A stretch of DNA of 64,000 bases from a virus. Each line of letters begins with the position of its first letter. Within the stretch, counting starts at the first letter, position 1. This document shows, one piece after another, positions 17,295 through 47,774 of the stretch. The DNA lies in the IMG/VR virus record IMGVR_UViG_3300037502_002729, positions 32,001 to 96,000 of that record; one strand, written 5' to 3'. A program made the position numbers and the translations under genes. Under the pieces are notes generated by a model. It saw nothing but the letters and a program-made list of their open reading frames with translations. It was not told the DNA's origin and made no database searches.

Positions 17295-17699
17295 ATGGAA
17301 AAAGAAAAACTAAAAAAAATATTTGAATTCATTGAAGAGAAGGAAGGGCATAAATTTCCAATTATATGGAAATTAATTAATAATATCCCATTTACAAAAG
17401 AAGAATTAAATATTGAAGGTGATTTGGATTTATCATACACTACTAAAATAACCTCTTTACCCCAAGGCTTGAGAATTGAAGGTGATTTTTATATTGATTA
17501 TTCATATGTTGAACTACCAAAAGGATTAGAAGTTGGTGGTGATGTGTATGTAACAGGCACATACTTGGAGGATTACACAAAGGAACAGGTAATGACAATG
17601 ATTTATCCTGGTTTTATAAAAGGTGATTTAATTTATAATATGGGTGATTCTTATGAGAATGATGGGGATGAGGATGAAAATGATGATGGGTTTCTATAA
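17295..17699 (+). CDS. Capped variable-LRR family protein (array A, 2 repeats, acidic tail)
   Basis: MEKEKLKKIFEF N-cap, LPxGLxVxGDxY units, PGFIKG C-cap. Confidence 0.85.
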   Translation: MEKEKLKKIFEFIEEKEGHKFPIIWKLINNIPFTKEELNIEGDLDLSYTTKITSLPQGLRIEGDFYIDYSYVELPKGLEVGGDVYVTGTYLEDYTKEQVMTMIYPGFIKGDLIYNMGDSYENDGDEDENDDGFL

Positions 17700-17711
17700 A
17701 TTAAAAATACA

Positions 17712-18089
17712 ATGAAAAAAGAACAATTAAAAAGAATATTTGAATTCATTGAAGAGAAGGAAGGGCATAATGTACCATTTTTATGGAAATTTAAAAATAA
17801 TATACCATTAACAGAAAAAGATTTGAATGTTAATGGTGATTTGAATTTATCTGATTCAAAAATAAAATCATTACCAGAAGGTTTAAAAGTTGGTGGTGAT
17901 TTGTATTTAGATGGTTCATATGTGGAATCATTACCAAAAGGATTAGAGGTTTATGGAGATTTATATATAGCAGATACAGTCTTAGCCTCTAAATCTAATG
18001 ATGATTTAATAGTAATGATAAAACCTGGATTTATAAAAGGAGAAATAATAAATAATGAAGAAGAATATGATGAAGGATATGATGATTGA
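17712..18089 (+). CDS. Capped variable-LRR family protein (array A, 2 repeats, acidic tail)
   Basis: Same caps and repeat. Confidence 0.85.
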   Translation: MKKEQLKRIFEFIEEKEGHNVPFLWKFKNNIPLTEKDLNVNGDLNLSDSKIKSLPEGLKVGGDLYLDGSYVESLPKGLEVYGDLYIADTVLASKSNDDLIVMIKPGFIKGEIINNEEEYDEGYDD

Positions 18090-18106
18090 TTTAAATTAAA
18101 AATAAA

Positions 18107-18517
18107 ATGGAAAAAGAACAATTAAAAAGAATATTTGAATTCCTTGAAGAGAAGGATAACAAGAGAGTACCCCTAACATGGAAATTAATCAATGATTTTG
18201 ATTCAATAGATGATAAAGATTTATTTTATGATGATAATTTTGATTTATATGGTGCAAGAGTAAAAAGATTACCAGACAATTTTACTGTTAAAGGATATCT
18301 TGATTTAAGATTGACAAAAATAAAAACTCTCCCAGATAATTTAACTGTTGATGGTGATTTATACCTAACGGCTTTAGAAATAGATTCAGTTCCAAAAAAT
18401 CTAAAAGCACACTCAATGTTTGCAAAATACACAACTCTATCTGAAAAATATTCATACAAAGAAATTAAGGATATGATAAAAGAAAAGGGTGGTGAAGTTA
18501 AGTTTTTAACAATTTAA
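18107..18517 (+). CDS. Capped variable-LRR family protein (array A, 3 divergent repeats)
   Basis: MEKEQLKRIFEFLEEK N-cap; LPDNFTVKGYLDL/LPDNLTVDGDLYL; divergent C-cap. Confidence 0.8.
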   Translation: MEKEQLKRIFEFLEEKDNKRVPLTWKLINDFDSIDDKDLFYDDNFDLYGARVKRLPDNFTVKGYLDLRLTKIKTLPDNLTVDGDLYLTALEIDSVPKNLKAHSMFAKYTTLSEKYSYKEIKDMIKEKGGEVKFLTI

Positions 18518-18542
18518 TTACCTATATTTATAGAAAAAAAAT

Positions 18543-19355: not shown

Positions 19356-19367
19356 AAAGGAAGGGGG

Positions 19368-21380
19368 TCAATTGACCCCCTTTTTAATTATAACATTTTC
19401 ATCTTCAACAACCAAATTGTAAGGTTCATTTTCTTTAATGAAGCCATTTAAAACCTCATCAGATATTAAATCCTCAATCTTATCTTGGATTGCTCTCTTA
19501 ATTGGCCTTGCACCATAAGTTTCATCAAATCCAACTTTGCTAATTAAATCAATAATAGATGAATCAAAGGAAACAATGTAATTAGATTCTGTTAATCTTG
19601 TAATTAGTTTGTTAAGTTCAATTTCAGTTATCTTTTTAACATTCTCATCATTCAATGTATTGAATACAATGGTATCATCAATACGGTTCAAGAATTCAGG
19701 TGAAAAGAACTTTTTCAATTCTTTCATTAGCATTTCTTTTTTAGCAACTTCATTGCCATATTTGGATGATGTGAAACTAATTCCAGTTCCAAAGTCTTGG
19801 AATTTTTTAATACCCAAGTTTGTTGTTAAAATGATGATTGTATTTTTGAAATTAATAGTTTTACCTAAACTATCTGTTAGATGACCTTCATCCAATATCT
19901 GCAATAACAAATTAAAAACATCCTTGTGGGCTTTTTCAATCTCATCAAATAAGATAATTGAATATGGGTTATTCTTAACTTTTTCAGTTAGTTGACCACC
20001 TTCATCATGACCAACATAGCCTGGAGGTGAACCTATTAATCTTGATATGGTGTGTTTTTCTTGGTATTCACTCATATCAACCCTAATCAATGATTTCTCA
20101 TTTCCAAATAATTGTTTGGCTAATTGCTTTGCTAAATGTGTTTTACCAACTCCTGTGGATCCTAAGAATATGAAACTACCTACTGGTCTATTTGGGTCTT
20201 TAATGTTAAGCCTATTTCTTTTAATAGACCTTGTAATAGATTCAACAGCAGCATCTTGACCAATAAGGTTTTCTTTAATTTTCTTATCTAAATTTATTAA
20301 TTTTTGTTTTTCATCTATGTTCATTTGTTCTAGTGGAATATTTGTCATAATAGAAACCACAGAATAAACATCCTCAATATCAATCTTTCTCTTATTCTTT
20401 AAATTATTTTCTTCAAACTTTTTTGTTTCAGAATCAAGTTTTGTCAATAACTTCAATTCTTTATCTCTAATTTCAGCAGCCAATTCATATTCTTGGTTGA
20501 TAACAACTCTTGTTTTTTCTTTCTTCAAATCATTAATCTTTTCTTTTAATATTTGAATTGATTCTGGTATCTTGACATCAACTTGGAGTTTTGCACCAAC
20601 TTCATCAATAATATCAAAAGCCTTATCAGGGAATGCTCTATCATTAATATATCTATCAGCCATCTTAACACATAATTCTATAACATCATCACTATATGAT
20701 GCCTTATGGAAGGATTCATATTTGTCAATAGATTGTTTAACAATTTTTATTGTTTCACTTATTGAAGGTTGTTCAAGTTTGATTTTTTGAAATCTTCTTG
20801 CTAATGCACCATCTTTTTCTATTGATTTTTTGAATTCATCAAATGTGGTTGCACCAATACATTGAATTTCCCCAGATGCCAATGCTGGTTTAAATATGTT
20901 TGCACCATCCATAGCATTAGATGAATTACCAGATCCAATTAATGTGTGTATTTCATCAATGAATATAATAACATTTGGGTTTGCAATTAACTCATCAAGA
21001 ATTACCTTCATCCTTTCCTCAAACTGACCCCTATATTTGGTACCAGCAACAACAGATGTTAAATCTAAATTTACAATTCTTTTGTTTAGTAGATTTTGAG
21101 GTCCTTCACCTTTTGAAATCATTAAGGCAACGCCCTCAATCAAGTTTGTTTTACCACAACCAGCATCACCAAGAATTAATGGATTGTTTTTCTTGCGTCT
21201 TGATAAGACTTGAGCCAATCTCTTAACTTCTTTTTCCCTACCAATTGACATATCTAGTTTCCCCATTTCAGCCAATTTGGTTAAATCTCTACTAAAATTG
21301 TCCAATACTGGAGTTTTTGAACCAGAGGTGTTTTTCTTACCTCTTGTTGTTTTTTCATCATCAAAATAGTCAACATTCAT
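19368..21380 (-). CDS. clpC: ClpC-type AAA+ chaperone lacking the N-terminal Clp repeat domain
   Basis: GDAGCGKT/FIDEIH, UVR-like QEYELAAEIRD, GSTGVGKT, RVDMSEY, RLIGSPPGYVG, GISF loop, GARPIKR. Confidence 0.9.
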   Translation of the reverse strand: MNVDYFDDEKTTRGKKNTSGSKTPVLDNFSRDLTKLAEMGKLDMSIGREKEVKRLAQVLSRRKKNNPLILGDAGCGKTNLIEGVALMISKGEGPQNLLNKRIVNLDLTSVVAGTKYRGQFEERMKVILDELIANPNVIIFIDEIHTLIGSGNSSNAMDGANIFKPALASGEIQCIGATTFDEFKKSIEKDGALARRFQKIKLEQPSISETIKIVKQSIDKYESFHKASYSDDVIELCVKMADRYINDRAFPDKAFDIIDEVGAKLQVDVKIPESIQILKEKINDLKKEKTRVVINQEYELAAEIRDKELKLLTKLDSETKKFEENNLKNKRKIDIEDVYSVVSIMTNIPLEQMNIDEKQKLINLDKKIKENLIGQDAAVESITRSIKRNRLNIKDPNRPVGSFIFLGSTGVGKTHLAKQLAKQLFGNEKSLIRVDMSEYQEKHTISRLIGSPPGYVGHDEGGQLTEKVKNNPYSIILFDEIEKAHKDVFNLLLQILDEGHLTDSLGKTINFKNTIIILTTNLGIKKFQDFGTGISFTSSKYGNEVAKKEMLMKELKKFFSPEFLNRIDDTIVFNTLNDENVKKITEIELNKLITRLTESNYIVSFDSSIIDLISKVGFDETYGARPIKRAIQDKIEDLISDEVLNGFIKENEPYNLVVEDENVIIKKGVN

Positions 21381-21434
21381 ATCTTATGTTTTTTTTATAA
21401 ATATCATACAAATTTTGGACTAATCCAATAGTTT

Positions 21435-21537
21435 TGACAAATTGTCAGGAAAATAATATATTATATGACATTTTGGCATATAATGACACCTATAACTGAC
21501 GTTTTGTCATATAAAAATAATTTGGCATTAAATTTGA
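21435..21537. promoter_or_regulatory. Three phased TGAC-N5-GTCA palindromes plus sigma54-like element between divergent clpC and hsp20
   Basis: TGACAAATTGTCA 21435, TGACATTTTGGCA 21466, TGACGTTTTGTCA 21497; TGGCATTAAATTTGA 21523-21537. Confidence 0.6.
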
Positions 21538-21579
21538 CTTCCTCATAAAAAAAATAAACAATTATAAAAAAACAAAATT

Positions 21580-22011: not shown

Positions 22012-22038
22012 ATGCTATATATTTATATTAAAAAAAAT

Positions 22039-22503: not shown

Positions 22504-22592
22504 ATTAGACTAATTATTTTTACTAAGTCTCCAAAATATTTTATATATTTTTGGAGGCTTTTTTTATTTTATATATTTATATAAAAAAAACT

Positions 22593-22835: not shown

Positions 22836-22837
22836 GA

Positions 22838-32618: not shown

Positions 32619-33320
32619 ATGAAAGATTTAAGAATTCTTGAAGCCAATGAAATAGGGCATGGTATTCTAATTGAAATGGATGCTGGGTGGGTTAATCCAA
32701 AAGATGAGTTGAACCTTGATTTAATAAGAGAAAATAAGAAATTAGATTATAGCAAACCTTTTGAGTTTTATGCTGTTTTGCAAAAACATGATGTTCCAAA
32801 TAGGAATGGCAGAACATATCCTGAAAAGATATTAAAGAGGGAAGCAGAAAGATATAAAAAGATTATTGAAAAAGGTTTATCAACATCAGAATTAAACCAC
32901 CCAGAATCATCCCTTATTGACTTGGATAGGGTTTCCCATTTAATTACAGATGTTTGGTGGGATAGCAATATCCTAATGGGGAAGTTATTGTTATTGACCT
33001 CTCCTGCCTTCCATGAGAGGGGCATAGTTTCAACCAAAGGAGATATTGCAGCAAACCTAATGAGGCAAGGAGTAAGCCTTGGAATTAGTTCTAGGGGGGT
33101 TGGATCATTAAAGAAAGTTGGGGAGAAAAATGAGGTTCAAGATGACTTTGAACTTATTTGTTTTGATTTGGTTTCATCACCATCAACGCCAGGGGCATAT
33201 CTATTCTCAAACAAGGAAGATAGACATAAGTATGATGAAAAATTGGAAGAGGAAAAGAAAATTGAACCAGTTAGTAATGTATTAAAATTAATGTCTAAAC
33301 TTGATAGTTATTTAAAATAA
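32619..33320 (+). CDS. Prohead core protease (T4 gp21-like)
   Basis: NRNGRTYP, ELNHP, VSH, GISSRGVGS, DLVSSPSTPGA. Confidence 0.93.
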   Translation: MKDLRILEANEIGHGILIEMDAGWVNPKDELNLDLIRENKKLDYSKPFEFYAVLQKHDVPNRNGRTYPEKILKREAERYKKIIEKGLSTSELNHPESSLIDLDRVSHLITDVWWDSNILMGKLLLLTSPAFHERGIVSTKGDIAANLMRQGVSLGISSRGVGSLKKVGEKNEVQDDFELICFDLVSSPSTPGAYLFSNKEDRHKYDEKLEEEKKIEPVSNVLKLMSKLDSYLK

Positions 33321-33333: not shown

Positions 33334-34113
33334 ATGCAAATAGGACAATTAAAAAGAATAATTGATTTCTTAGAAAATAAAGAAGGAAAAACACCTAAAG
33401 ACAAAGGTAATTTAAGATGGAAAATGGTATTTAATGAACCATTTACAAAAAAAGAATTAAATATTAAAGATGATTTGTATTTAAATTTTTCAAATATAAG
33501 GTCATTACCAGAAGGATTTAAAGTTTGGGGTGATATAAATTTGGCTAAATCCCATATAGAATCATTACCAGAAGGATTGAAAGTTGGGGGTAGTTTGCGT
33601 TTGGGTTATACAAATATTGCCTCACTCCCAAAAGGTTTGAAAGTTGGGGGTGATTTGGAATTGCTTGAAACAAACATAACTTCACTCCCAGAAGATTTGA
33701 AATTTGGTGGTAATTTGGATTTATCAGGCTCTAAAATAATGTCATTACCAGATAATTTATATATTAGGGGTAATTTAGGTTTAGTTAGATGTGAAAATTT
33801 AACTTCATTACCAAATGGATTAAAAGTTGCTGGTAATTTGAAATTAACCTTTGCAAAAATAAATTCATTACCATATGATTTACAAGTTGGTAATTATTTG
33901 GATTTATCATATACTAACATAACCTCATTACCACAAGGCTTGAAAGTTGGAGGTAGATTCAATGTGTCAAATACAAATATTGAATCCTTACCAAAAGGAT
34001 TGAAAGTTGGTGAAAATTTACTTATTTACAGGTCAAATTTGAAAAAATATACTGATGAAGAATTAAGAGAAATGGTTAAACCAGGTTTTATAAAAGGAGA
34101 AATATTTAGATAA
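33334..34113 (+). CDS. Capped variable-LRR family protein (array B, 9 repeats)
   Basis: LKRIIDFLE N-cap; 9 LP units; KYTDEELREMVKPGFIKGEIFR. Confidence 0.88.
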   Translation: MQIGQLKRIIDFLENKEGKTPKDKGNLRWKMVFNEPFTKKELNIKDDLYLNFSNIRSLPEGFKVWGDINLAKSHIESLPEGLKVGGSLRLGYTNIASLPKGLKVGGDLELLETNITSLPEDLKFGGNLDLSGSKIMSLPDNLYIRGNLGLVRCENLTSLPNGLKVAGNLKLTFAKINSLPYDLQVGNYLDLSYTNITSLPQGLKVGGRFNVSNTNIESLPKGLKVGENLLIYRSNLKKYTDEELREMVKPGFIKGEIFR

Positions 34114-34165
34114 TGAATTAAGAGAAATGGTAAAACCAGATGGTTATGTAGGTAAAATATATTAA
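34112..34165 (+). pseudogene. Orphan C-cap remnant of a deleted LRR gene
   Basis: Reads NELREMVKPDGYVGKIY* with no N-cap or repeats. Confidence 0.75.
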
Positions 34166-34166
34166 A

Positions 34167-34757
34167 ATGGAAAAAGAAACACTAAAAAGAATATTTCAAT
34201 TCCTTGAAGAAAAGGAAGAACATAGTGCACCATTATTATGGAAACATAAAAATAATATGCAAATAACAAAAGAAGAGTTGAATTTTAAAGGTGACTTACA
34301 TTTAGAAAATTCACCAATAACCTCCTTGCCAGATGGGTTGAAAGTTGAGGGTGATTTGATGTTAACCTTTTCAAAAATAGCCTCATTACCAGATGATTTG
34401 CAAGTTGGGGGTGATTTAAATATAATTGGTTGTGAAGCCATAACCTCATTACCAAAAGGATTAAAAGTTGGCAAAGGCATACAATTATATGCAAAAAGAA
34501 TAGTTTCCATTGGGGAAGGATTATTTGTTAATGGAGATTTAAATTTATTTAATAGTCAAATAAAATCATTACCCCAAGGTGTTAAAATTGTGGGGGAGTT
34601 AGTTTTATCCTTTACAAAAATAGAAACATTACCAAAAGGTTTGATAGTTAAAGGTGGTTTGGAGATTTCTGGATCACCATTAGAAAAATATTCAAATAGA
34701 CAATTAAGAAAAATGGTTGAACCTGGATTTATAAATGGTCCAATAGTTAGAGATTAG
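34167..34757 (+). CDS. Capped variable-LRR family protein (array B, 6 repeats)
   Basis: Same caps and repeat. Confidence 0.88.
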   Translation: MEKETLKRIFQFLEEKEEHSAPLLWKHKNNMQITKEELNFKGDLHLENSPITSLPDGLKVEGDLMLTFSKIASLPDDLQVGGDLNIIGCEAITSLPKGLKVGKGIQLYAKRIVSIGEGLFVNGDLNLFNSQIKSLPQGVKIVGELVLSFTKIETLPKGLIVKGGLEISGSPLEKYSNRQLRKMVEPGFINGPIVRD

Positions 34758-34760
34758 ATA

Positions 34761-35234
34761 ATGGAAAAAGAGAAGTTAAAAAGAATATTTGAGTTCCTTG
34801 AAGATAAGGAAAATCTAAACCCCCCATTCTTGTGGAAATGGAAAAATAATATACCATTAATAGAAGAAGATTCAAATGTTAAAGGTGATTTGAATTTAGC
34901 ATTTTCAAAAATAAGATTTTTACCAGAAGGTTTGAAAGTTGCTGGTGATTTGGATTTGCAAGATTCATATGTGAAATCATTACCAAAAGGATTGGAAGTT
35001 GGTGGTGTTTTGAATTTAATAGGTACTTATATGACAACATTACCAGAAGGATTGAAAGTTGGGGGTAGTTTGAATATAGCACATTCAACTATATTATCAC
35101 TACCAAAAGGATTGGAAGTTGGAGGTGATTTATATATTAATGGCACAAAATTAACAAAATATACAAAAAACCAATTAAGAGAAATGGTTAAACCTGGATT
35201 TATAAAAGGAAAAATATATACAGGATATGAATAA
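34761..35234 (+). CDS. Capped variable-LRR family protein (array B, 4 repeats)
   Basis: Same caps and repeat. Confidence 0.88.
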   Translation: MEKEKLKRIFEFLEDKENLNPPFLWKWKNNIPLIEEDSNVKGDLNLAFSKIRFLPEGLKVAGDLDLQDSYVKSLPKGLEVGGVLNLIGTYMTTLPEGLKVGGSLNIAHSTILSLPKGLEVGGDLYINGTKLTKYTKNQLREMVKPGFIKGKIYTGYE

Positions 35235-35886
35235 AGAATCTCTAAAAAGGATATTTGATTTCCTTGAAGCCCAAGAGAATAAAACACCCAATTCCAAAGG
35301 AAACCTTAGATGGAAATTAATTTTCAATGAACCATTAACAGAAGAAGAATTGACTGTTGATGGTGATTTGAATTTAAATAATACACCCTTAACCTCATTA
35401 CCAAAAGGATTAAAAGTTAGGGGTTATTTGAGTTTATCAAACACAAAAATAACCTCATTACCAGAAGATTTGAAAGTTGTTGGTAGTCTATATTTGGATC
35501 ATAGCTTTATAAAATCATTACCAAAGGGATTAAAATTTGGGGGTGATTTTCATTTAGCACATTCTAAAATAACCTCATTACCAGAAGGATTGAAAGTTAA
35601 TCATAGCTTGTATTTAAATGATTGTGAAGATTTAATCTCACTACCAAAAGGATTAAAAGTTGGTGGTTGGTTGAAATTACCAAATACAAAGATAACCTCA
35701 TTACCAGAAGACTTGGAGGTTGGTGGATCTTTGAATTTACGTTTTTGCACAGAATTAACTTCATTACCAAAAGGATTGAAAGTTGGTGGTGATTTGTATA
35801 TTCGTGGAGCGTATTTATCAAAATATACAGATGAAGAATTAAGAGAAATGATTAAACCTGGATTTATAAAAGGAGAAATATATTGA
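35227..35886 (+). CDS. Capped variable-LRR family protein (array B, 7 repeats)
   Basis: Same caps and repeat. Confidence 0.88.
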   Translation: MNKESLKRIFDFLEAQENKTPNSKGNLRWKLIFNEPLTEEELTVDGDLNLNNTPLTSLPKGLKVRGYLSLSNTKITSLPEDLKVVGSLYLDHSFIKSLPKGLKFGGDFHLAHSKITSLPEGLKVNHSLYLNDCEDLISLPKGLKVGGWLKLPNTKITSLPEDLEVGGSLNLRFCTELTSLPKGLKVGGDLYIRGAYLSKYTDEELREMIKPGFIKGEIY

Positions 35887-35888
35887 TA

Positions 35889-36353
35889 ATGGAAAAAGAG
35901 AAGTTAAAAAGAATATTTGAGTTTCTTGAAGAGAAGGGAGAACATAGATTACCACTTAAATGGAAATTAATAAATAATATATCATTAATAGAAGATGATT
36001 TAAATGTTAAAGGTGATTTAGACTTTTCATATTTAGATATAGCCTCATTACCAGAAGGATTGAAAGTTGTAGGTGATTTATCTTTAAGAGGTTCAAAAAT
36101 AATCTCACTACCAGAAGGATTAGAAGTTGGTGGTGATTTGATGTTATATAAATCAGCAATTGAATCATTGCCAAAAGATTTGATAGTTGGGGGTGGTTTG
36201 AGTGTAGCATATTCAAGTATATTCTCACTACCAAAAGGATTGGAAGTTGGAGGTGATTTATATATTCATGGAACAGATTTAACAAAATATACAAAACGAC
36301 AATTAAGAGAAATGATAAAACCAGGTTTTATAAAAGGTAGAATATATGACTAA
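35889..36353 (+). CDS. Capped variable-LRR family protein (array B, 4 repeats)
   Basis: Likely start MEKEK at 35889. Confidence 0.88.
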   Translation: MEKEKLKRIFEFLEEKGEHRLPLKWKLINNISLIEDDLNVKGDLDFSYLDIASLPEGLKVVGDLSLRGSKIISLPEGLEVGGDLMLYKSAIESLPKDLIVGGGLSVAYSSIFSLPKGLEVGGDLYIHGTDLTKYTKRQLREMIKPGFIKGRIYD

Positions 36354-36667: not shown

Positions 36668-36699
36668 AAACCCCTAGCATTTTATGTTGGGGGTTTTTT
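36668..36699 (+). terminator. Intrinsic terminator
   Basis: AAACCCCTAGCA-loop-TGTTGGGGGTTTTTT. Confidence 0.75.
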
Positions 36700-36774
36700 G
36701 TTTTTAAAAAAAAATACTACTAATTAGTATTTTTTTGCATTTGCATATATTTATAATAAAAATAAATAAAAATT

Positions 36775-38370
36775 ATGCAACCTGAAAAAAATTTAGTAGA
36801 AGAAGCACTAATTCAAATGAAACAAATTGAAGATGTGCTTTCAGAAAATGCAAAAGGAATACTTTCTTCAACAATGAAGGAAGAAATCGAAGAATTGGTT
36901 AAGGAATCTTTAAATGAGCAAGAAGATATTGAAGATGATGACACTAATTTAGATATGGAAGATGATGTAGAAGATATGGAGGATGAAATGGATATAGAGG
37001 ATGAAGATGAACTAGATATAGAGGATGAGGATGAAATGGATATGGAAGATGACAATGATGTCATTGACATGAGGGGATCTTCAGAACAAGAATTATTAAA
37101 AGTATTTAAAGCAATGGATGATGAAGATGGTATTATTGTTAGTAAAGATGGTGATGACATTTCTTTAACTGATGATGATAATGAATATTTAATAAGATTG
37201 GGTGAACAAATAAGTGAGTTTGGTGATGAGGATTATGAAGATGAGGATGAAATGGAAATGGATTTTGAAGATGAGGATGAAATGGAAATGGATTTTGAAG
37301 ATGAGGATGAAATGGATATGGGTTTTGAAGATGAAATGGAAATGGATGGTGATTATGATGATGAAATGGGTGAAATGTATGAAGATGACACTCAATCAAC
37401 CATTGATAAAATTTTTGAAAGAACTAATACCAAAAAATCTAATATCATTTATGAAATTGAAGTAGATGAGCAAATTGATTTGGATGATGAAGATGAGTTT
37501 GATATGGAAGATGATATGGATATGGAAAATGATATGGATATGGAAGATGATTTAAACAACATTGAAGTTGATTGTGATAATTTTTCAGTTAGTGATTTCA
37601 TAAAAGAACATGGAATTAAAGACGCTTCAAAAATATTAAAAGTATTAGAAAATAATGGATGCGTAGCAAGTAAAGGTGAAACATCAGAAGATTATAATTA
37701 TTTAGGTGAGGCTAAAAAGGCTTCCAAATTTAAGTATAATATGCCTAAAAATGGTTTTAATGAAAAAATGAAAGAAGGTCCTAAAAAAATGGGGACAGGA
37801 AAAGCTAAGTTTAACTATGATAAATCTGCTGCAAATGTTGATGGTAAGATGAAAAAAGTTAATACTGGTAAAAAACAAGAAACCAAAGAAGCATCAAGAA
37901 CTTATGGTATGGGAAGCAAAGCAGGTAGAGGCCTTAGAAAAGGTATAACACCAAATAGAAACATTACATATGAATCCCTAGAAGCAGAAATTTCTCAATT
38001 AAAACAAAAAAATAATGAATATAAAAAATCATTAAATGTATTTAGGGATAAATTAAATGAAGTTGCTGTGTTTAATGCAAATTTAGCATATGCAACAAGA
38101 TTGTTCACTGAACACTCAACAACTAAAAAAGAAAAAATAAACATTTTGAGACGTTTTGATAATGTTCAATCACTACAAGAATCAAAACAATTGTTTAATG
38201 CAATAAATAGTGAATTGTCAAAAGAAACAAATACGTCTTTAAATGAGTCTGTTAATCGCAAAATTTCAAATGTTGCATCAACAGGTTCATCTGCTAACTT
38301 GATTGAATCCAAGACTTATGAAAATCCTCAATTTTTGAGAATGAAAGATTTAATGGGTAAATTAGGTTAA
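36775..38370 (+). CDS. Prohead scaffold/core protein (gp22-like position)
   Basis: Directly upstream of MCP; very acidic D/E/M repeats, coiled-coil C-term, many L/I-x-E sites. Confidence 0.75.
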   Translation: MQPEKNLVEEALIQMKQIEDVLSENAKGILSSTMKEEIEELVKESLNEQEDIEDDDTNLDMEDDVEDMEDEMDIEDEDELDIEDEDEMDMEDDNDVIDMRGSSEQELLKVFKAMDDEDGIIVSKDGDDISLTDDDNEYLIRLGEQISEFGDEDYEDEDEMEMDFEDEDEMEMDFEDEDEMDMGFEDEMEMDGDYDDEMGEMYEDDTQSTIDKIFERTNTKKSNIIYEIEVDEQIDLDDEDEFDMEDDMDMENDMDMEDDLNNIEVDCDNFSVSDFIKEHGIKDASKILKVLENNGCVASKGETSEDYNYLGEAKKASKFKYNMPKNGFNEKMKEGPKKMGTGKAKFNYDKSAANVDGKMKKVNTGKKQETKEASRTYGMGSKAGRGLRKGITPNRNITYESLEAEISQLKQKNNEYKKSLNVFRDKLNEVAVFNANLAYATRLFTEHSTTKKEKINILRRFDNVQSLQESKQLFNAINSELSKETNTSLNESVNRKISNVASTGSSANLIESKTYENPQFLRMKDLMGKLG

Positions 38371-42497: not shown

Positions 42498-42653
42498 ATT
42501 AATTTTTATTTATAAATATCATTAAGGTCTATTTTGATTAAGGCTTCCATATTTTGATTTTAAGATACTTTTTGTTTTAGCCTATTACTATGTCATATTT
42601 ATTAAAATCTATTGTCTTGGTTAAATTGTATGTGGTTAAATGGGATTTAATGA

Positions 42654-43193
42654 CTATATCTTAATTATTCCTTTTATATATCCAGGTTTAACCATTTCTC
42701 TTAATTCATCATTAGAAAAATTGCCTAAACTATCCTCAGTACTTATATTTAAGTAGCGATTAACTATTAACCCTTTTGGTAACTTATTTATTGGTGTATT
42801 CATTATTCCTAACCAACCATCAATGACTAGCCCTTCTGGTAGTGAAGTTATTTTTGTATTATGTAAATACAAAGAATTACCAATTTTAATATCATGTGGT
42901 ATGTTTTTTATGTTGGAGTGGGATAAATACAAACTACCACCAACTTTCAACCCTTTTGGCAATTCTTCTATTTTTGAAAATCTAGTCTGCATATCACCTT
43001 TAACTTCCAAATTATCTGGCAATGATTTTAATGTTGAATCTGTTAAATCCAAATCACCATTAACAACTAAATCATCTTTTGTTAGGGGTTCATTAAATTT
43101 TAATTTCCAAATAAAGTTATCTCTATCTTTATGTTTTTTCTTTTCTTTCTTCTCAAAAAAATCAAATATTTTTCTTATTGTTTCTTTTTCCAT
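42654..43193 (-). CDS. Capped variable-LRR family protein (array C, 5 repeats)
   Basis: Same caps and repeat. Confidence 0.88.
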   Translation of the reverse strand: MEKETIRKIFDFFEKKEKKKHKDRDNFIWKLKFNEPLTKDDLVVNGDLDLTDSTLKSLPDNLEVKGDMQTRFSKIEELPKGLKVGGSLYLSHSNIKNIPHDIKIGNSLYLHNTKITSLPEGLVIDGWLGIMNTPINKLPKGLIVNRYLNISTEDSLGNFSNDELREMVKPGYIKGIIKI

Positions 43194-43813
43194 TATCTAA
43201 ATATTTTACCTTCAAATTTTCCCCCATTTAAATTTTTATTACTTCTTATTTCTTCATCTGTATATTTTTTGGCAAGGGGGGTGTTTCTTATGCCTATATC
43301 TCGTCTAACATATAAATTATTTGGAAAATCTTCTATTTGTGTAGAAATAATACCAAAATTACCTCCAACGTATAAATTATCTGGAAGTTCTTTTATTTTT
43401 ACACAATCAGATAAATTTAAACTACCCCCAACATATAATTCACTTGGGAGTTTTATTAATTCTTCACAAGAATCCAAATCTAAATAATCATCCACATATA
43501 TTTTATCTGGGAGTTTTGTTATATTTAAACCTGCTAAATCTGCCCAACCTTCAACACGTAAATCACCTGAAAGTTCTTTTAAATTTTTACAATCTTTCAC
43601 CATCAAATAACCCTTAACATTAAATTTATTTGGTAATTTTTTTATAGGCATTTCGTATAAATACAAATTATCATTATGTGTAAATTGAACATCATCAGGA
43701 TAATTTTCTAGGTCATACATTAGGTTAAGTTTTCTTAACTTAATATAGGAGGGGACTTTATTTTCTTTCTTTTTAATAAAATCAAGTATCTTTTTTATTG
43801 TTTTTATTTCCAT
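43193..43813 (-). CDS. Capped variable-LRR family protein (array C, 6 divergent repeats)
   Basis: Likely start MEIKTIKKILDF at 43813; TPLAKKYTDEEIR C-cap. Confidence 0.82.
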   Translation of the reverse strand: MEIKTIKKILDFIKKKENKVPSYIKLRKLNLMYDLENYPDDVQFTHNDNLYLYEMPIKKLPNKFNVKGYLMVKDCKNLKELSGDLRVEGWADLAGLNITKLPDKIYVDDYLDLDSCEELIKLPSELYVGGSLNLSDCVKIKELPDNLYVGGNFGIISTQIEDFPNNLYVRRDIGIRNTPLAKKYTDEEIRSNKNLNGGKFEGKIFR

Positions 43814-43817
43814 CTTC

Positions 43818-44396
43818 TTAATATATGCTCCCATTTATGTATCCAGGATGAATCATTTTTGCAATTTCATCATCATCAAGTTTATATATGGATGTTCCAT
43901 AAACATGTAAATCTCCACCAACTATTAAGCCTTTTGGTAAGGACTTTAAGTTTTTACAATTTCTTAAATTTAAATCACCACCAACTTCTAATCCTTCTGG
44001 CAATGATTCTATTTTTGAATGTTTTAAAACTAAATTATAATCAACTTTCAAACCTTTTGGTAATTTAGTTATTTCTGTACCACCTAAATCCAAACCTTCA
44101 ACTTCCAAATCCTCTGGTAATGATTTTATTCTTGAACTAGCTAAAAATAAACCCCTAACTTTCAATCCTTTTGGCAATGAAGTTATGCTTGATTCATAAA
44201 GGTATAAATTACCATCAACATTTAACCCTTCTGGTAATGAGGTAATTTCTATTCTTTCTAAATCCAAATCACCTTTAACATTTAATTCTTCTTTGGTTAA
44301 TGGGATATTATTTAATAATTTCCATTTAAATGGTGCATTATGCCCTTCCTTCTCTTCAAGGAACTCAAATATTCTTTTTAATTGTTCTTTTTCCAT
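43818..44396 (-). CDS. Capped variable-LRR family protein (array C, 6 repeats)
   Basis: Same caps and repeat. Confidence 0.88.
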   Translation of the reverse strand: MEKEQLKRIFEFLEEKEGHNAPFKWKLLNNIPLTKEELNVKGDLDLERIEITSLPEGLNVDGNLYLYESSITSLPKGLKVRGLFLASSRIKSLPEDLEVEGLDLGGTEITKLPKGLKVDYNLVLKHSKIESLPEGLEVGGDLNLRNCKNLKSLPKGLIVGGDLHVYGTSIYKLDDDEIAKMIHPGYINGSIY

Positions 44397-44992
44397 TATC
44401 TTATTATGTCTCCTTTTATAAATCCAGGTTTAATCATTTCTCTTAATTCATTATTTGTGTATTCTAATAATGCTGTATTTTTAATAATCAACTCACCTTT
44501 AACTTCTAACCCTTTTGGTAATGAAGTTATTTTTGAACGCTGTAAATGCAAAATATCACCAACTTTCAACCCTTCTGGTAATGATTCTATATCTGCAAAA
44601 ACTAAACTTAAACTACCACCAACTTTCAATCCTTTTGGTAGTGAAGTTATTTTTGTATTGTGTAAATACAAAGAATTACCAATTTTAATATCATCTGGTA
44701 TGTTTTTTATCCTAGAGTAGGATAAATCCAAAGTACCACCAACTTTCAAGCCTTTTGGTAATTCTTCTATTCTTGAAAATCTAGTAAGCATACCACCTTT
44801 AACTTCCAAATTATCTGGCAATGATTTTAATGTTGAATCTGTTAAATCCAAATCACCATTAACAACTAAATCTTCTTTGGTTAGGGGTTCATTAAACTTT
44901 AATTTCCAAATAAAGTTATCTCTATCTTTATGTTTTTTCCCTTCCTTTTCTTCAAGGAATTCAAATATTCTTTTTAATTGTTCTTTTTCCAT
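44396..44992 (-). CDS. Capped variable-LRR family protein (array C, 6 repeats)
   Basis: Same caps and repeat. Confidence 0.88.
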   Translation of the reverse strand: MEKEQLKRIFEFLEEKEGKKHKDRDNFIWKLKFNEPLTKEDLVVNGDLDLTDSTLKSLPDNLEVKGGMLTRFSRIEELPKGLKVGGTLDLSYSRIKNIPDDIKIGNSLYLHNTKITSLPKGLKVGGSLSLVFADIESLPEGLKVGDILHLQRSKITSLPKGLEVKGELIIKNTALLEYTNNELREMIKPGFIKGDIIR

Positions 44993-45399
44993 TATTTAAA
45001 TATTTTTCCTTTTATAAAGCCAGGTTTAATCATTTCCTTTATTTCATCCTTTGAGTAATGTATTAATGGAGTTCTATTAATAATAATATCCCCCCCAACT
45101 TTCAATCCTTTTGGTAAATCTTTGATGAATTTACAACTATCCAAAAACAAATCACCCTTAACTTCCAATCCATCTGGCAATGAGGATATAGTTGAAAATA
45201 GCAAATCCAAATCACCCCCAACTTTCAACCCTTCTGGTAATGAGTTTATTTCAATAGACCTTAAATCTAAATCACCTTTAACATTTAAATCTTCTTTGGT
45301 TAATGGGATATTATTAAATAATTTCCATTTAAATGGTGCATTATGCCCTTCCTTTTCTTCAAGAAACTCAAATATTCTTTTTAATGCTTCTTTTTCCAT
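44992..45399 (-). CDS. Capped variable-LRR family protein (array C, 3 repeats)
   Basis: Same caps and repeat. Confidence 0.88.
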   Translation of the reverse strand: MEKEALKRIFEFLEEKEGHNAPFKWKLFNNIPLTKEDLNVKGDLDLRSIEINSLPEGLKVGGDLDLLFSTISSLPDGLEVKGDLFLDSCKFIKDLPKGLKVGGDIIINRTPLIHYSKDEIKEMIKPGFIKGKIFK

Positions 45400-45863
45400 T
45401 ATCTAAATATTATTCCTTTTATAAACCCAGGTTCAATCATTTCCCTTAATTCTTCATCTGTGTATTCTAATAATGCTGTCTTTTTAATATATAAATTAGC
45501 ACCAACTTCCAATCCTTTTGGTAAGGAGGTTATTTTTGTATTTATTAAATCCAACCAAAACCTAACTTTCAAGCCTTTTGGTAATGAGGTTATTTTTGTA
45601 TTATATAAATTCAAATAACCACCAACTTTCAAATCTTCTGGTAATGAGGTTATATTTGTATCTCTTAAACTCAAAAACCCACTAACTTTCAATCCTTCTG
45701 GTAATGATGTTATATTTGTTTTATTTAAAAATAAACTACCTTTAATATTTAAATCACCTTCTGTTAATGGTATATTATTAAATAATTTCCATTTAAATGG
45801 TGCTCTATTCTCTCCTTTCTCTTCAAGGAATTCAAATATCCTTTTTAGTTTTTCTTTTTCCAT
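45399..45863 (-). CDS. Capped variable-LRR family protein (array C, 4 repeats)
   Basis: Same caps and repeat. Confidence 0.88.
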   Translation of the reverse strand: MEKEKLKRIFEFLEEKGENRAPFKWKLFNNIPLTEGDLNIKGSLFLNKTNITSLPEGLKVSGFLSLRDTNITSLPEDLKVGGYLNLYNTKITSLPKGLKVRFWLDLINTKITSLPKGLEVGANLYIKKTALLEYTDEELREMIEPGFIKGIIFR

Positions 45864-46261
45864 TATCTTATTATGTCTCCTTTTATAAATCCAGGCTTTA
45901 TCATATCTCTTAATTCTTCATTAGTATAATCTTCTAATGGAGTATTTCTAATAAATAAACTACGCCCAACTTTCAAACCTTTTGGTAATAAGGTTATTTT
46001 TGTATTATATAGACTTAAATCATCACCAACTTTCAATCCTTCTGGCAGTGAAGTTATACTTGAGTTGTCTAAATACAAAGTACCCTTAACTTCCAATCCA
46101 TTTGGCAATGATGTTATATTTGATAATTGCAAATCACCATTAATTTCCAAATCTTCTTTTCTTAATGGCATATTAGTTTTCAACTTCCACACAAGTGGTT
46201 GGTTAAGATTTTCCTTTGTTTTAAGGAACTCAAATATTCTTTTTATTTTTTCTTTTTCCAT
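45863..46261 (-). CDS. Capped variable-LRR family protein (array C, 3 repeats)
   Basis: Same caps and repeat. Confidence 0.88.
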   Translation of the reverse strand: MEKEKIKRIFEFLKTKENLNQPLVWKLKTNMPLRKEDLEINGDLQLSNITSLPNGLEVKGTLYLDNSSITSLPEGLKVGDDLSLYNTKITLLPKGLKVGRSLFIRNTPLEDYTNEELRDMIKPGFIKGDIIR

Positions 46262-46965
46262 TATCTAAATATTTCTCCTTCTATATATCCAGGTTTTACC
46301 ATTTCTCTTAATTGGTCATCTGTGTATTTTCTTAATATGCTTTTTTCTATATATAATTTTCCATAAACTTTCAAACCTTTTGGCAATGAGGTTATATTTG
46401 TATCTCTTAAATACAAACCTCCACCAACTTCCAATCCATTTGGCAATGAGGTTATATTTGTATGTGATAAAGTCAAATAACCACCAACTTTCAATCCTTC
46501 TGGCAATGAGGTTATTTTTGAACTGGTTAAACCCAAATTACCATTAACTTTCAATCTTTCTGGCAATGAGGTTATTTTTGTATTCTCTATATGCAAAGAA
46601 CCCCCAACTTTCAAACCTTTTGGTAGTGAGTTTATATCCGCATATGATAAATTCAAAGAACCACCAACTTGTAAATCATCTGGTAATGAGATTATTTTTG
46701 AAAAGGTTAACATCAAATCACCATCAACTTTTAAACCTTCTGGTAATGAGGTTATGTTTGAATTAGTTAAATATAAATCACCACCAACTTTCAAACCTTC
46801 TGGCAATGAGGTTATATTTGCGTGTCTTAAACTCAAATCACCTTTAACATTTAAATCTTCTTTTGCTATTGGCATAGCCAATTTAATCTTAACTGGTAAT
46901 GGTATAATGTGTTCTCCTTTCTCTTCAAGAAACTCAAATATTCTTTTTAGTTTTTCTTTTTCCAT
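46261..46965 (-). CDS. Capped variable-LRR family protein (array C, 8 repeats)
   Basis: Exact 60-bp period visible (tggcaatgaggttat at 46381, 46441, 46501, 46561). Confidence 0.9.
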   Translation of the reverse strand: MEKEKLKRIFEFLEEKGEHIIPLPVKIKLAMPIAKEDLNVKGDLSLRHANITSLPEGLKVGGDLYLTNSNITSLPEGLKVDGDLMLTFSKIISLPDDLQVGGSLNLSYADINSLPKGLKVGGSLHIENTKITSLPERLKVNGNLGLTSSKITSLPEGLKVGGYLTLSHTNITSLPNGLEVGGGLYLRDTNITSLPKGLKVYGKLYIEKSILRKYTDDQLREMVKPGYIEGEIFR

Positions 46966-47369
46966 TATCTATATATTTCTCCTTTTATAAATCCAGGTTT
47001 AATCATTTCCCTTAATTCTTCAGCTGAATATTTTATTAATGCACTATCATCAATATATAAATTTCTTCCAACTTCCAATCCTTTTGGTAAAAACTTTATA
47101 TCTGTTTCAATTAAATCCAAATGACCACCAACTTTTAGTCCTTCTGGTAAATACTCTATAAATGTATAGGCTAAATCAAGCCAACCACTAACTTGCAATC
47201 CTTCTGGTAAGGTTTCAACTCCTGTATTACTTAAATCCAAATCACCTTTAACATTTAAATCACCTTCTGTTAATGGTATATCATTTTTATACTTCCATAA
47301 GAATGGTGCATTATGTTCTTCCTTCTCTTCAAGGAATTCAAATATTCTTTTTAGTGCTTCTTTTTCCAT
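46965..47369 (-). CDS. Capped variable-LRR family protein (array C, 3 repeats)
   Basis: Same caps and repeat. Confidence 0.88.
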   Translation of the reverse strand: MEKEALKRIFEFLEEKEEHNAPFLWKYKNDIPLTEGDLNVKGDLDLSNTGVETLPEGLQVSGWLDLAYTFIEYLPEGLKVGGHLDLIETDIKFLPKGLEVGRNLYIDDSALIKYSAEELREMIKPGFIKGEIYR

Positions 47370-47372
47370 TAT

Positions 47373-47774
47373 CTAATATATATTTCCATTTATATAACCA
47401 GGTTTTATCATTTCTCTTAATTCATCATTTAAAAGTTTTGTTAATTCTGTTCCTCCAAGAAATAAATCACCCTCTACTTTTAAACCTTTTGGTAGTGAGG
47501 TTATTTTTGTATTAGCCAAAGACAAATCACCACCAACTTTCAAGTCTTTTGGTAATGAGGTTATATTTGTATTTCTTAAAATCAAAAAACCACTAACTTT
47601 CAACCCTTCTGGTAATGAAGTTATATTTGATTGAAACAAATTCAAATTGCCTTTAACATTTAAATCATCTTCTGTTAATGGTATATTATTTTTAAATTTC
47701 CATAAAAATGGTGTTCTATGCTCACCCTCCTCTTCAAGGAACTCAAATATTCTTTTTAATGTTTCTTTTTCCAT
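47373..47774 (-). CDS. Capped variable-LRR family protein (array C, 3 repeats)
   Basis: Same caps; TAATG-coupled to the upstream structural gene. Confidence 0.88.
   Translation of the reverse strand: MEKETLKRIFEFLEEEGEHRTPFLWKFKNNIPLTEDDLNVKGNLNLFQSNITSLPEGLKVSGFLILRNTNITSLPKDLKVGGDLSLANTKITSLPKGLKVEGDLFLGGTELTKLLNDELREMIKPGYINGNIY

What the first reader, a model, noticed from the sequence alone, without database searches (positions are those of the whole stretch)
17295..47774. Repertoire of 18 capped, variable leucine-rich-repeat proteins in three tandem arrays (VLR/antibody-like architecture in a phage)
Seen: arrays at 17295-18517 (3 genes), 33334-36353 (5) and 42654-47774 (10). Each gene has a conserved N-cap (MEKExLKRIFEFLEEKE..W..N.PLT.E.L.V.GDL), then 2-9 modules of a mostly 20-aa/60-bp unit LPEGLKVGGxLxLxx(S/T/C)xITS (about 84 units, counted by eye), then a conserved C-cap (L.KYT.EELREMIKPGFIKG.I.R). 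The framework is nearly constant, while the x positions around LxL vary widely (D,Y,F,W,H,R,M,S...). Known: in LRR solenoids these positions line the concave ligand-binding beta-sheet; this is how lamprey VLRs and plant NLR LRRs diversify. No signal peptides or catalytic domains are visible. Inference: a library of small cytoplasmic binders on one scaffold with many specificities, e.g. inhibitors or decoys of host defence proteins, using about 9.4 kb of this window.
Basis: partly seen in the sequence, partly recalled or inferred. Interest (0 to 1): 0.92.

Follow-up and report, generated by a model that had tools for sequence, protein, structure and literature searches.

The report
Variable LRR protein family in jumbo phage
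A large T4-like phage carries dozens of small leucine-rich-repeat proteins built on one scaffold whose predicted binding face evolves unusually fast, so they look like an inherited set of binders with many specificities, but what they bind is unknown.

Summary
The window has 18 co-linear genes in three arrays. Each has a conserved N-cap, 2-9 LP-anchored 20-aa units and a conserved C-cap (9,312 nt). The whole 107-kb record has 23 members. A 90%-complete relative of 270 kb has 41, which is 8.2% of its genome.

An AlphaFold2 model (pLDDT 92) and three PDB searches all give a leucine-rich-repeat fold. The closest matches are short bacterial LRRs (Vibrio FlrP, SspH1/SlrP/IpaH).

Variability sits at unit positions 10, 12, 14, 15 and 17, around the xLxLx strand. 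At moderate divergence dN/dS there is 1.54 (bootstrap 1.15-2.12), against 0.32 in the framework. Whole-gene omega is about 0.5, against about 0.11 for other genes.

Diversity is inherited: duplication, unit gain and loss, and gene-conversion patches. No reverse transcriptase was found, and nothing suggests VLR-type somatic assembly.

The capped family looks virus-restricted and unnamed. The "cytoplasmic anti-defence" reading is untested. Two arrays lie in virion-gene operons, one after the prohead protease and one after a CBM+Ig-like protein, so virion association is a close rival.

First-stage readers of this scan noted similar arrays on other genomes. Verdict: a real and unusual family, a new variant of a known kind.

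The parts
17295..17699 (+). LRR paralog, array A1 gene 1 (134 aa, 2 LP-anchored units, acidic C-terminal tail, pI 4.2)
17712..18089 (+). LRR paralog, A1 gene 2 (125 aa, 2 units, acidic tail)
18107..18517 (+). LRR paralog, A1 gene 3 (136 aa, 3 units, divergent C-cap); 96% ortholog in G001
33334..34113 (+). LRR paralog, A2 gene 1 (259 aa, 9 units); starts 13 nt after the prohead protease gene
34114..34166 (+). Spacer holding a relic C-cap fragment (reads ..NELREMVKPDGYVGKIY*), a footprint of a deleted or recombined paralog
   Evidence: read from the sequence
34167..34757 (+). LRR paralog, A2 gene 2 (196 aa, 6 units)
34761..35234 (+). LRR paralog, A2 gene 3 (157 aa, 4 units)
35227..35886 (+). LRR paralog, A2 gene 4 (219 aa, 7 units)
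35889..36353 (+). LRR paralog, A2 gene 5 (154 aa from the ATG at 35889; ORF lister gives TTG at 35883; 4 units); 99% ortholog in G001
36668..36706 (+). Strong intrinsic-terminator-like hairpin ending the unit 'protease - A2 - 69-aa ORF'
42654..43193 (-). LRR paralog, A3 gene 10 (179 aa, 5 units); chimera: first 362 nt are 91% identical to 44396-44992
43193..43834 (-). Divergent LRR paralog, A3 gene 9 (213 aa, 5 units, 21-aa units, 3 Cys)
43818..44396 (-). LRR paralog, A3 gene 8 (192 aa, 5 units)
44396..44992 (-). LRR paralog, A3 gene 7 (198 aa, 6 units)
44992..45399 (-). LRR paralog, A3 gene 6 (135 aa, 3 units); no ortholog in G001
45399..45863 (-). LRR paralog, A3 gene 5 (154 aa, 4 units); the member that was modelled; no ortholog in G001
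45863..46261 (-). LRR paralog, A3 gene 4 (132 aa, 3 units)
46261..46965 (-). LRR paralog, A3 gene 3 (234 aa, 9 units); passes the Pfam DUF5649 cut-off
46965..47369 (-). LRR paralog, A3 gene 2 (134 aa, 3 units); no ortholog in G001
47373..47774 (-). LRR paralog, A3 gene 1 (133 aa, 3 units); its start overlaps the stop of the upstream 501-aa gene
17267..17276 (+). TATATTTATA box 28 nt upstream of array A1; the same box precedes about 20 other genes, including the putative scaffold gene at 36775
32619..33320 (+). Context: T4 gp21-like prohead protease (Peptidase_S77), directly upstream of A2
47774..49279 (-). Context: 501-aa protein directly upstream of A3; N-terminal carbohydrate-binding-module fold plus two Ig-like domains

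Best explanation
Core, about 0.75-0.8 likely: this is an inherited multigene family of small capped LRR solenoids. It grew by tandem duplication, gain and loss of 60-nt units, and gene conversion between paralogs. Each paralog keeps the same hydrophobic framework and caps. Each presents a different set of side chains at unit positions 10, 12, 14, 15 and 17, on and next to the beta-strand that in LRR proteins forms the concave ligand-binding sheet. Those positions evolve faster than synonymous sites, so the family is best read as binders with many different specificities. Lean on site of action, about 0.4 likely: the proteins act inside the infected cell on host proteins, or on the phage's own late proteins, as inhibitors, masks or adaptors, for example against host defence sensors. 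They would be co-expressed with the operons in which they sit. Shown: gene structure, fold, variability pattern, dN/dS pattern, recombination footprints, family size and virus restriction. Inferred: that the variable face binds ligands, that the ligands differ between paralogs, and where the proteins act. The confidence below is for the whole statement, including the intracellular lean.
For: Fold: AF2 pLDDT 92.2, pTM 0.82. Every top Foldseek and VIA hit is an LRR protein: FlrP 8z5u_0 at Z 13.8, rmsd 4.0, 144 residues aligned, plus SspH1, Leptospira LRRs and VLRs. A profile search of PDB sequences gives FlrP at E 2e-30 and SlrP/SspH1 at 1.5e-9. Variability: entropy is 3.1-3.75 bits at positions 10, 12, 14, 15 and 17, and below 0.75 at positions 1, 2, 5, 7, 11, 13 and 18, in 532 unique units. 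These positions are rich in D, N, Y, S, H, W, F and R. Selection: in 25 independent pairs with dS 0.15-0.6, omega is 1.54 at hypervariable positions (bootstrap 1.15-2.12), 0.79 at semi-variable positions and 0.32 in the framework. For G000-G001 orthologs, omega is 0.50 against 0.109 for 58 other genes (Mann-Whitney p 1e-5). It is still 0.49 against 0.12 when only low-dS genes are compared. Diverse surfaces: pI ranges from 4.2 to 9.3. Dynamics: arrays have 10 vs 6, 5 vs 3, 3 vs 2 and 5 vs 7 genes in two phages with collinear, mostly 85-99% identical flanks. There is one chimeric pair, exact patches of 131, 79, 55 and 45 nt shared between paralogs and across arrays, and a relic C-cap. No RT is present. 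For the intracellular lean: there is no signal peptide, transmembrane segment or enzyme domain. The LRR class is the one used for substrate recognition by IpaH/SspH/SlrP effectors. Uncapped LRR genes with the same unit lie just upstream of early recT/exo operons in Edwardsiella phage Edno5 and EBPR podovirus 1.
Against: No ligand is known, and binding is inferred from the fold only. dN/dS comes from a hand-written NG86 count on ungapped pairs in a 28% GC genome with gene conversion. It is not a site model on a recombination-free tree. Among the closest pairs (77-98% identity), omega at hypervariable sites is 0.72, not above 1. Family turnover between G000 and G001 does not exceed that of other genes: 12 of 22 family genes against 58 of 110 others have an ortholog of 85% or more. 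Against the intracellular lean: array A2 shares a transcription unit with the prohead protease, between portal and capsid genes. A3 is translationally coupled to a CBM+Ig-like protein gene, downstream of weak tail or baseplate-like leads. Longer relatives join the LRR module to Pro/Thr-rich linkers, which by general knowledge are commoner in surface-exposed proteins. The model's coordinates could not be read, so placing the variable residues on the concave face rests on DSSP plus general LRR knowledge.
Confidence: 0.4

Rival explanations
1. Virion-displayed recognition modules. The LRR proteins are made late and dock through their conserved caps onto the capsid or a fibre or baseplate protein. 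Their variable faces then serve as adhesins for variable host-surface molecules. This would resemble Hoc-type decoration or T2 gp38-type tip adhesins, but with dozens of alternatives.
For: A2 lies between the S77 prohead protease and the putative scaffold and capsid genes, in one transcription unit closed by a strong terminator. In phage lambda, by general knowledge, the corresponding slot holds the decoration gene. A3 starts on the stop codon of a 501-aa protein whose model has a carbohydrate-binding-module fold (8wab_B Z 16.2, 168 aligned; 7vbo_A Z 14.3) plus two Ig-like domains. Further upstream there is a sub-threshold baseplate-spike OB motif and a very weak tape-measure lead. These adjacencies recur in every relative fetched, but all belong to one clade. 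A1 carries the same TATATTTATA box as the putative scaffold gene. Relatives fuse the LRR module to Pro/Thr-rich linkers. A preprint on phage Goslar proposes LRR/beta-helix domains on virion fibres for host recognition (10.64898/2026.04.21.720040).
Against: No anchor partner has been identified. The cap profiles hit no other protein in two genomes. The hydrophobic pattern of the N-cap is what a structural cap needs. Known receptor-binding proteins are mostly trimeric and larger. Forty-one small monomers competing for one docking site has no precedent. Operon position alone is weak evidence, because accessory genes are often inserted into late operons.
Confidence: 0.3
2. Capsid-packaged internal proteins. 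The conserved N-terminus would be a T4-type capsid-targeting sequence. The proteins would be loaded into the prohead, trimmed by the S77 protease and ejected with the DNA to neutralise host defences at entry, as T4 IPI* does.
For: Five genes sit inside the prohead-core gene block, directly after the gp21-like protease. The N-terminal 16 residues are the best-conserved part of the protein. Another first-stage note on a different genome raised the same idea (e1-6004050).
Against: Across 229 N-caps the candidate P1 residue, position 11, is variable (2.3 bits). The conserved motif is F-L-E, whereas T4 gp21 is known to cut after (L/I)-x-E (the specificity is general knowledge). The N-cap profile matches no other protein in G000 or G001, while about a dozen unrelated proteins of this phage share a different leader type. 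The first helix is modelled as part of the cap. Eighteen of the 23 genes lie outside the head block.
Confidence: 0.08
3. Substrate adaptors for a phage-encoded Clp protease. The LRR face would select host proteins and the conserved caps would dock on the phage's ClpC/B-like unfoldase plus ClpP. This would be analogous to LRR-NEL or F-box substrate receptors.
For: The phage encodes ClpP (window 8346-9014), a double-AAA+ Clp ATPase lacking an N-domain (19368-21380) and a tmRNA (15834-16255). Array A1 is separated from the ATPase gene only by an M42/M20-like peptidase gene, in all relatives fetched.
Against: Only 3 of the 23 genes are near the Clp genes. The ATPase shows no clear IGF-type ClpP-docking loop on a simple motif scan. 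No interaction test was run.
Confidence: 0.05
4. Not a binder set. The proteins would be a structural or filler family, for example head-to-tail solenoid polymers. The variable positions would simply be unconstrained surface residues drifting under relaxed selection.
For: Among the closest pairs, omega at hypervariable sites is 0.72, which fits near-neutral drift. Cap regions also show fairly high omega of 0.6-1.1.
Against: At moderate divergence omega at these positions exceeds 1, with a bootstrap interval that excludes 1. A 41-gene family taking 8% of a phage genome and kept intact (no stops inside the family matches in five related records) is hard to explain without function. Residue use at these positions favours D, N, Y, W, H and R.
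Confidence: 0.05

Closest known systems
Short (20-residue) bacterial LRR domains: Vibrio FlrP (PDB 8z5u) and the substrate-recognition domains of SspH1, SlrP and IpaH effectors
   Same: Same 20-aa period and nearly the same unit (LPxGLxVxGxLxLxxTxI). Best structural and sequence matches. In the effectors the concave face binds target proteins.
   Different: No NEL ligase domain, no secretion signal (FlrP has a Sec signal, PMC13626733), and different N- and C-caps. Here the proteins are small and stand-alone, in tandem arrays of dozens, and are found in viral sequences.
Lamprey and hagfish variable lymphocyte receptors, and repebodies derived from them
   Same: A fixed LRR scaffold with caps, a variable number of modules, and hypervariable residues on the beta-strand face. 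VLRs appear among the fold and profile hits.
   Different: VLR diversity is assembled somatically from cassettes. VLR caps are disulfide-bonded LRRNT/LRRCT and the modules are 24 aa. Here every variant is a separate inherited gene, the caps have 0-3 cysteines, and the period is 20 aa.
Multigene repeat-protein families of large DNA viruses (LRR, ankyrin, FNIP and BTB families of giant viruses; poxvirus ankyrin/PRANC host-range genes)
   Same: Virus-encoded, tandemly amplified repeat-protein paralogs occupying several percent of the genome. Giant-virus LRR proteins appear as weak fold hits.
   Different: Those viruses infect eukaryotes, and many of those proteins link to the ubiquitin system. 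No homologous caps. The library search here found no report of such a family in a bacteriophage.
Pfam DUF5649 (PF18886) and PHROG 21719
   Same: DUF5649 passes its cut-off on one paralog (28.5 against 25 bits). phrog_21719 matches the repeat region.
   Different: Both are unnamed repeat models of unknown function. Neither covers the caps, and most paralogs fall below the thresholds.
Polymorphic internal-protein locus of T4-like phages (IPI-IPIII; IPI* blocks GmrSD)
   Same: A phage locus of variable small proteins with a conserved N-terminus. Part of the family sits in the prohead-core gene block.
   Different: Unrelated fold. The conserved N-terminal motif does not fit the (L/I)-x-E cleavage rule. 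Packaging is untested.

Membership tests
Leucine-rich repeat superfamily (fold) | Tandem 20-30-aa units with an LxxLxLxx(N/C/T)xL-type core that form a solenoid with a parallel beta-sheet on one face | tested here: met
   AF2 pLDDT 92 with one short strand at xLxLx in each unit. All top Foldseek and VIA hits are LRR proteins. Profile search against PDB: E 2e-30 to 1e-9 for LRR proteins.
Leucine-rich repeat superfamily (Pfam models) | Score above the gathering threshold of a Pfam LRR model | tested here: inconclusive
   LRR_4 scores 22.1 against 27 bits, LRR_1 15.6 against 20.6, LRR_14 16 against 40. Only DUF5649 passes, on one paralog.
IpaH/SspH/SlrP NEL effectors | C-terminal NEL E3-ligase domain joined to the LRR | tested here: not met
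   The proteins end 25-30 aa after the last unit and have no Pfam NEL hit. NEL-fused relatives exist only among longer bacterial proteins.
IpaH/SspH/SlrP NEL effectors | 20-residue LRR period | tested here: met
   53 of 65 inter-anchor spacings are exactly 20 aa. Protein lengths cluster at 134, 154, 175 and 196 aa.
Variable lymphocyte receptors | Cysteine-knot LRRNT and LRRCT caps and 24-aa LRRV modules | tested here: not met
   0-3 cysteines per protein, an alpha-helical N-cap and a 20-aa period.
Variable lymphocyte receptors | Somatic assembly of one incomplete gene from flanking cassettes | not testable with these tools
   All 23 genes are complete ORFs with their own starts.
Diversity-generating retroelement targets | Reverse transcriptase with a template/variable repeat pair | tested here: not met
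   No RVT_1 match in G000 or in the 90%-complete G001.
T4-type capsid-targeted internal proteins | N-terminal targeting peptide ending in a conserved (L/I)-x-E protease site | tested here: inconclusive
   I9 is invariant, but the residue two positions later is variable (2.3 bits). The conserved motif is F-L-E. The S77 protease is present, but its specificity in this phage is unknown.

The most novel reading that the evidence does not exclude
The phage runs its own targeted-proteolysis system. The LRR paralogs would be a library of substrate receptors that hand chosen host proteins to the phage-encoded ClpC-like unfoldase and ClpP, alongside a phage tmRNA. This would be a prokaryotic-virus counterpart of LRR/F-box or LRR-NEL substrate selection.
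Probability: 0.05. Interest if true: 0.9.

Novelty: new variant of a known kind. Interest (0 to 1): 0.66.

Why it matters
LRR scaffolds with variable faces underlie vertebrate VLRs, plant NLRs and receptor-like proteins, and bacterial effectors. A bacteriophage clade that spends about 8% of its genome on 20-40 such proteins would show phages using the same solution: many specificities on one inherited scaffold. That holds here only if the signal of diversifying selection on the putative binding face survives stricter tests.

The family is large (over 1,400 database relatives), looks virus-restricted and is unnamed, so it is a ready source of testable phage-host interaction modules. If the targets are defence proteins, each paralog is a candidate inhibitor. 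If the proteins are virion adhesins, this would be a new route to broad or flexible host recognition. The small, stable-looking, cysteine-poor scaffold may also interest binder engineers.

Tried and rejected
1. Homo-oligomer or head-to-tail polymer test: complex prediction with three copies of the 154-aa member gave 'no answer' (score 0.00, mark 0.42). This is not evidence either way.

2. Modular targeting domain: N-cap and C-cap profiles against all ORFs of G000 and G001 hit only family members.

3. DGR mechanism: no reverse transcriptase found.

4. Cellular origin: a scan of 185,579 prokaryote species gave 7 loci. The four inspected (L077, L078, L080, L083) lack the caps. The pattern scan finds close relatives only.

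5. Cultured phages: tblastn of the phage collection found only uncapped LRR genes, in Edno5 and EBPR podovirus 1. blastn of the head-gene region found nothing.

6. Faster gene turnover than the rest of the genome: not supported.

7. Sigma-70 promoter scan: not above chance.

8. Neighbours 49298-50800 and 51004-53043: only sub-threshold Pfam and PHROG leads, and no PDB sequence hits. The 500-aa and 501-aa neighbours are not paralogs.

9. Literature: no paper on a phage LRR multigene family in the held library.

So there are no sample, host or expression data, and read laying was not used.

Full report
**What is there**

The window is bases 32001-96000 of a 107,342-bp IMG/VR virus record that CheckV rates 35% complete. 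It encodes a T4-type portal, a gp23-type major capsid protein, a large terminase and a gp21-like S77 prohead protease. It is therefore part of a T4-like jumbo phage with 28% GC.

They total 9,312 nt. Each has three parts:
- an N-cap of about 45 aa that starts MEKExLKRIFEFLEEKE and contains a conserved Trp;
- 20-aa units of the form LPxGLxVxGxLxLxx[ST]xIx[ST];
- a C-cap of the form ..EELREMIKPGFIKGxIxR.

I count 83 LP-anchored units, 2-9 per gene. Fifty-three spacings are exactly 20 aa and eight are 21 aa.

Genes within an array are packed with TAATG stop/start overlaps. A fourth array of five genes lies upstream of the window, so the record has 23 members.

**Fold**

An AlphaFold2 model of the 154-aa member was built from 34 same-length relatives. 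It has pLDDT 92.2 and pTM 0.82. It shows a helical N-cap, one short strand at xLxLx and a second at xKVx in every unit, and a helix-hairpin C-cap.

Foldseek against the PDB, and an independent VIA-align search of 48,161 chains, return only LRR proteins at the top. These are Vibrio FlrP (8z5u_0, Z 13.8, rmsd 4.0, 144 aligned), a Leptospira LRR (Z 12.0), SspH1, IpaH, internalins and VLRs. A profile search of PDB sequences gives FlrP at E 2e-30 with the same unit, and SlrP and SspH1 at 1.5e-9.

FlrP is a periplasmic LRR protein bound to the flagellar rod, and it has a Sec signal (PMC13626733). The phage proteins have a charged N-terminus and no such signal.

Pfam's LRR models stay below threshold. 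Only DUF5649 passes, on one paralog. PHROGs gives an unnamed family.

**Variability and selection**

In the 18 genes, positions 1, 2, 5, 7, 9, 11, 13 and 18 have entropy below 1 bit. Positions 10, 12, 14 and 15 have 3.1-3.7 bits.

In 532 unique units from 252 unique genes of related phages the pattern is the same, with position 17 added. D, N, Y, S, H, W, F and R are prominent at these positions. Positions 10-14 coincide with the modelled strand. By general LRR knowledge, the x positions of xLxLx face the concave surface. I could not read the model's coordinates, so this mapping is inferred.

dN/dS was computed with a Nei-Gojobori count that I wrote:

| Comparison | Hypervariable | Semi-variable | Framework |
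|---|---|---|---|
| 47 independent close pairs (77-98% identity) | 0.72 | 0.51 | 0.29 |
| 25 independent pairs, dS 0.15-0.6 | 1.54 (bootstrap 1.15-2.12) | 0.79 | 0.32 |

For orthologs between this phage and relative G001, whole-gene omega is 0.50, against 0.109 for 58 other genes (Mann-Whitney p 1e-5). The genome is a mosaic of low-dS and high-dS blocks. I therefore repeated the comparison with low-dS genes only, and it gave 0.49 against 0.12.

Caveats:
- AT-rich codon usage may bias the estimates.
- Gene conversion is present. The first 16 codons show raised dS and dN among close pairs.
- The test is a count, not a site model.

That criterion is not met.

**Family size and dynamics**

A database search found 1,453 relatives within the searched length range (84-270 aa), all unnamed. 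Their lengths cluster at 134, 154, 175 and 196 aa.

IMG/VR holds 61 related loci. Relative G001 is 270,075 bp and 90% complete. It is collinear with this record, and shared genes average 84% amino-acid identity. It has 41 members in nine loci, which is 8.2% of its genome.

Corresponding arrays differ between the two phages: 10 vs 6 genes (with one order swap), 5 vs 3, 3 vs 2, and 5 vs 7. The flanking genes are 93-100% identical. However, the share of family genes with an ortholog of 85% or more (12 of 22) matches that of other genes (58 of 110). Turnover is real but not exceptional for this genome.

Paralogs are mostly 65-80% identical in DNA, so the duplications are old. Recombination is nonetheless visible:
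- one chimeric pair shares its first 362 nt at 91% identity;
- exact patches of 79, 55, 45 and 44 nt are shared within and between arrays, and there is a 131-nt identical junction in the array outside the window;
- a relic C-cap sits in the spacer at 34114-34166.

No reverse transcriptase is present in G000 or G001. The diversity is therefore inherited and not made by a DGR.

**Distribution**

Protein-atlas clusters of the family are 85-100% viral, and the closest are 97-100% viral. BFVD holds 'Leucine-rich repeat [uncultured Caudovirales phage]' entries at 36-48% identity.

A scan of one genome from each of 185,579 prokaryote species returned seven loci. The four I inspected share the repeat but not the caps.

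Longer relatives share the unit but not the N-cap. They are fused to PcfJ-like domains (PF14284) or to PF14496, which I recall from memory as the NEL E3-ligase domain, or to Pro/Thr-rich linkers with further domains.

**Context and function**

Array A2 starts 13 nt after the prohead protease gene. It is followed by a 69-aa ORF and then a strong terminator, ahead of the putative scaffold and capsid genes.

Array A3 starts on the stop codon of a 501-aa protein. That protein's model (pLDDT 86) has an N-terminal carbohydrate-binding-module fold (8wab_B Z 16.2, 7vbo_A Z 14.3) and two Ig-like domains. Upstream genes give only weak leads to a baseplate-spike OB motif, a tape-measure protein and a gp55-like late sigma factor.

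Array A1 has a TATATTTATA box 28 nt upstream. The same box precedes the putative scaffold gene and about 20 other genes. A1 is followed by an M42/M20-like peptidase gene and a ClpC/B-like ATPase gene. The phage also encodes ClpP and a tmRNA.

These adjacencies recur in all relatives fetched, but those relatives form one clade.

By contrast, uncapped LRR genes with the same unit lie just upstream of early recT/exo operons in a temperate Edwardsiella phage and in EBPR podovirus 1.

The evidence therefore supports a binder repertoire but does not fix where it acts. My odds:

| Reading | Probability |
|---|---|
| Intracellular action on host or phage proteins | 0.40 |
| Virion display as adhesins | 0.30 |
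| Capsid packaging and ejection | 0.08 |
| Clp adaptors | 0.05 |
| No binding role | 0.05 |
| Open | remainder |

The capsid-targeting idea is weakened in three ways. The putative cleavage residue is not conserved across 229 N-caps. The cap occurs on no other protein. Other proteins of this phage share a different leader type.

**Comparison and novelty**

In structure and unit sequence these are short bacterial LRRs of the FlrP/IpaH/SspH class. They lack the NEL domain and have their own caps.

They resemble VLRs only in the principle of a variable face on a capped scaffold. The VLR caps, period and somatic assembly do not apply.

As a virus-encoded, tandemly amplified repeat family they resemble the LRR and ankyrin families of giant viruses and poxviruses. 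I found no report of such a family in phages in the held library. I rate it a new variant of a known kind.

Other first-stage notes of this scan describe similar arrays in this genome and in other genomes.

**Limits**

The sample type, the host and the expression of these genes are therefore unknown. A Bacteroidota host remains an untested assumption.

Noticed in passing
window 8346-9014 (-), 19368-21380 (-), 15834-16255 (-): The phage encodes its own ClpP, a 670-aa double-AAA+ ClpC/B-like ATPase without an N-domain, and a tmRNA whose tag ends in ..AVVAA. Together they look like a phage-borne protein quality-control or degradation kit.
   Followed up: partly
window 47774-49279 (-): A 501-aa protein of no known family. 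Its model has a carbohydrate-binding-module fold (8wab_B Z 16.2) plus two Ig-like domains, so it is a likely polysaccharide-binding virion or adhesin protein. It has 529 database relatives.
   Followed up: yes
window 49298-50800 (-), 51004-53043 (-), 53419-54144 (-): Weak, sub-threshold leads only: a Phage_base_V OB motif at residues 8-28 of the 500-aa protein, a tape-measure-like hit for the 679-aa protein, and a gp55-like late sigma hit for the 241-aa protein.
   Followed up: partly
whole record; e.g. window 1840, 5060, 10139; G000 7119-8675: About a dozen unrelated proteins begin with similar leaders (MK.I.TE.Q...L.E type). Longer LRR relatives from other phages carry a comparable leader (MNLQENIFRIKQMMGLLNEQ). 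This may be a capsid-targeting or processing signal.
   Followed up: partly
window 17267, 18523, 36746, 40316 and about 16 other sites: A TATATTTATA/TATAAATA box lies 16-35 nt upstream of many start codons on the coding strand. It resembles the T4 late promoter, but its temporal class is unknown.
   Followed up: partly
G000 vs G001, whole record: Synonymous divergence between the two phages alternates between blocks of dS 0.01-0.15 and blocks of dS 0.4-1.4. This indicates recent recombination between lineages. The shared LRR genes lie in low-dS blocks.
   Followed up: partly
L083 (Promethearchaeota MAG contig WJMJ01000107.1) 162-1212: Three tandem small LRR genes with the same 20-aa unit but a different shared N-terminus and C-terminus. 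This is a separate case of tandem capped mini-LRR genes.
   Followed up: no
L001 5944-6687 (Edwardsiella phage Edno5); L084 118-765 (EBPR podovirus 1): Uncapped LRR genes with the same unit sit just upstream of recT/exo early operons in two small phages. The EBPR ORF is largely unannotated in the record.
   Followed up: partly
window 17295-17699 and 17712-18089: Two A1 paralogs end in strongly acidic tails (..DGDEDENDDGFL and ..EEEYDEGYDD). The first recalls the acidic tips of single-strand-binding proteins. This is speculative.
   Followed up: no
G000 2113-6141 (outside the window): A cluster of several DNA methyltransferase-like genes with near-identical N-termini (MNVLSLFDGMSCGQIAL..), read from the sequence only.
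   Followed up: no
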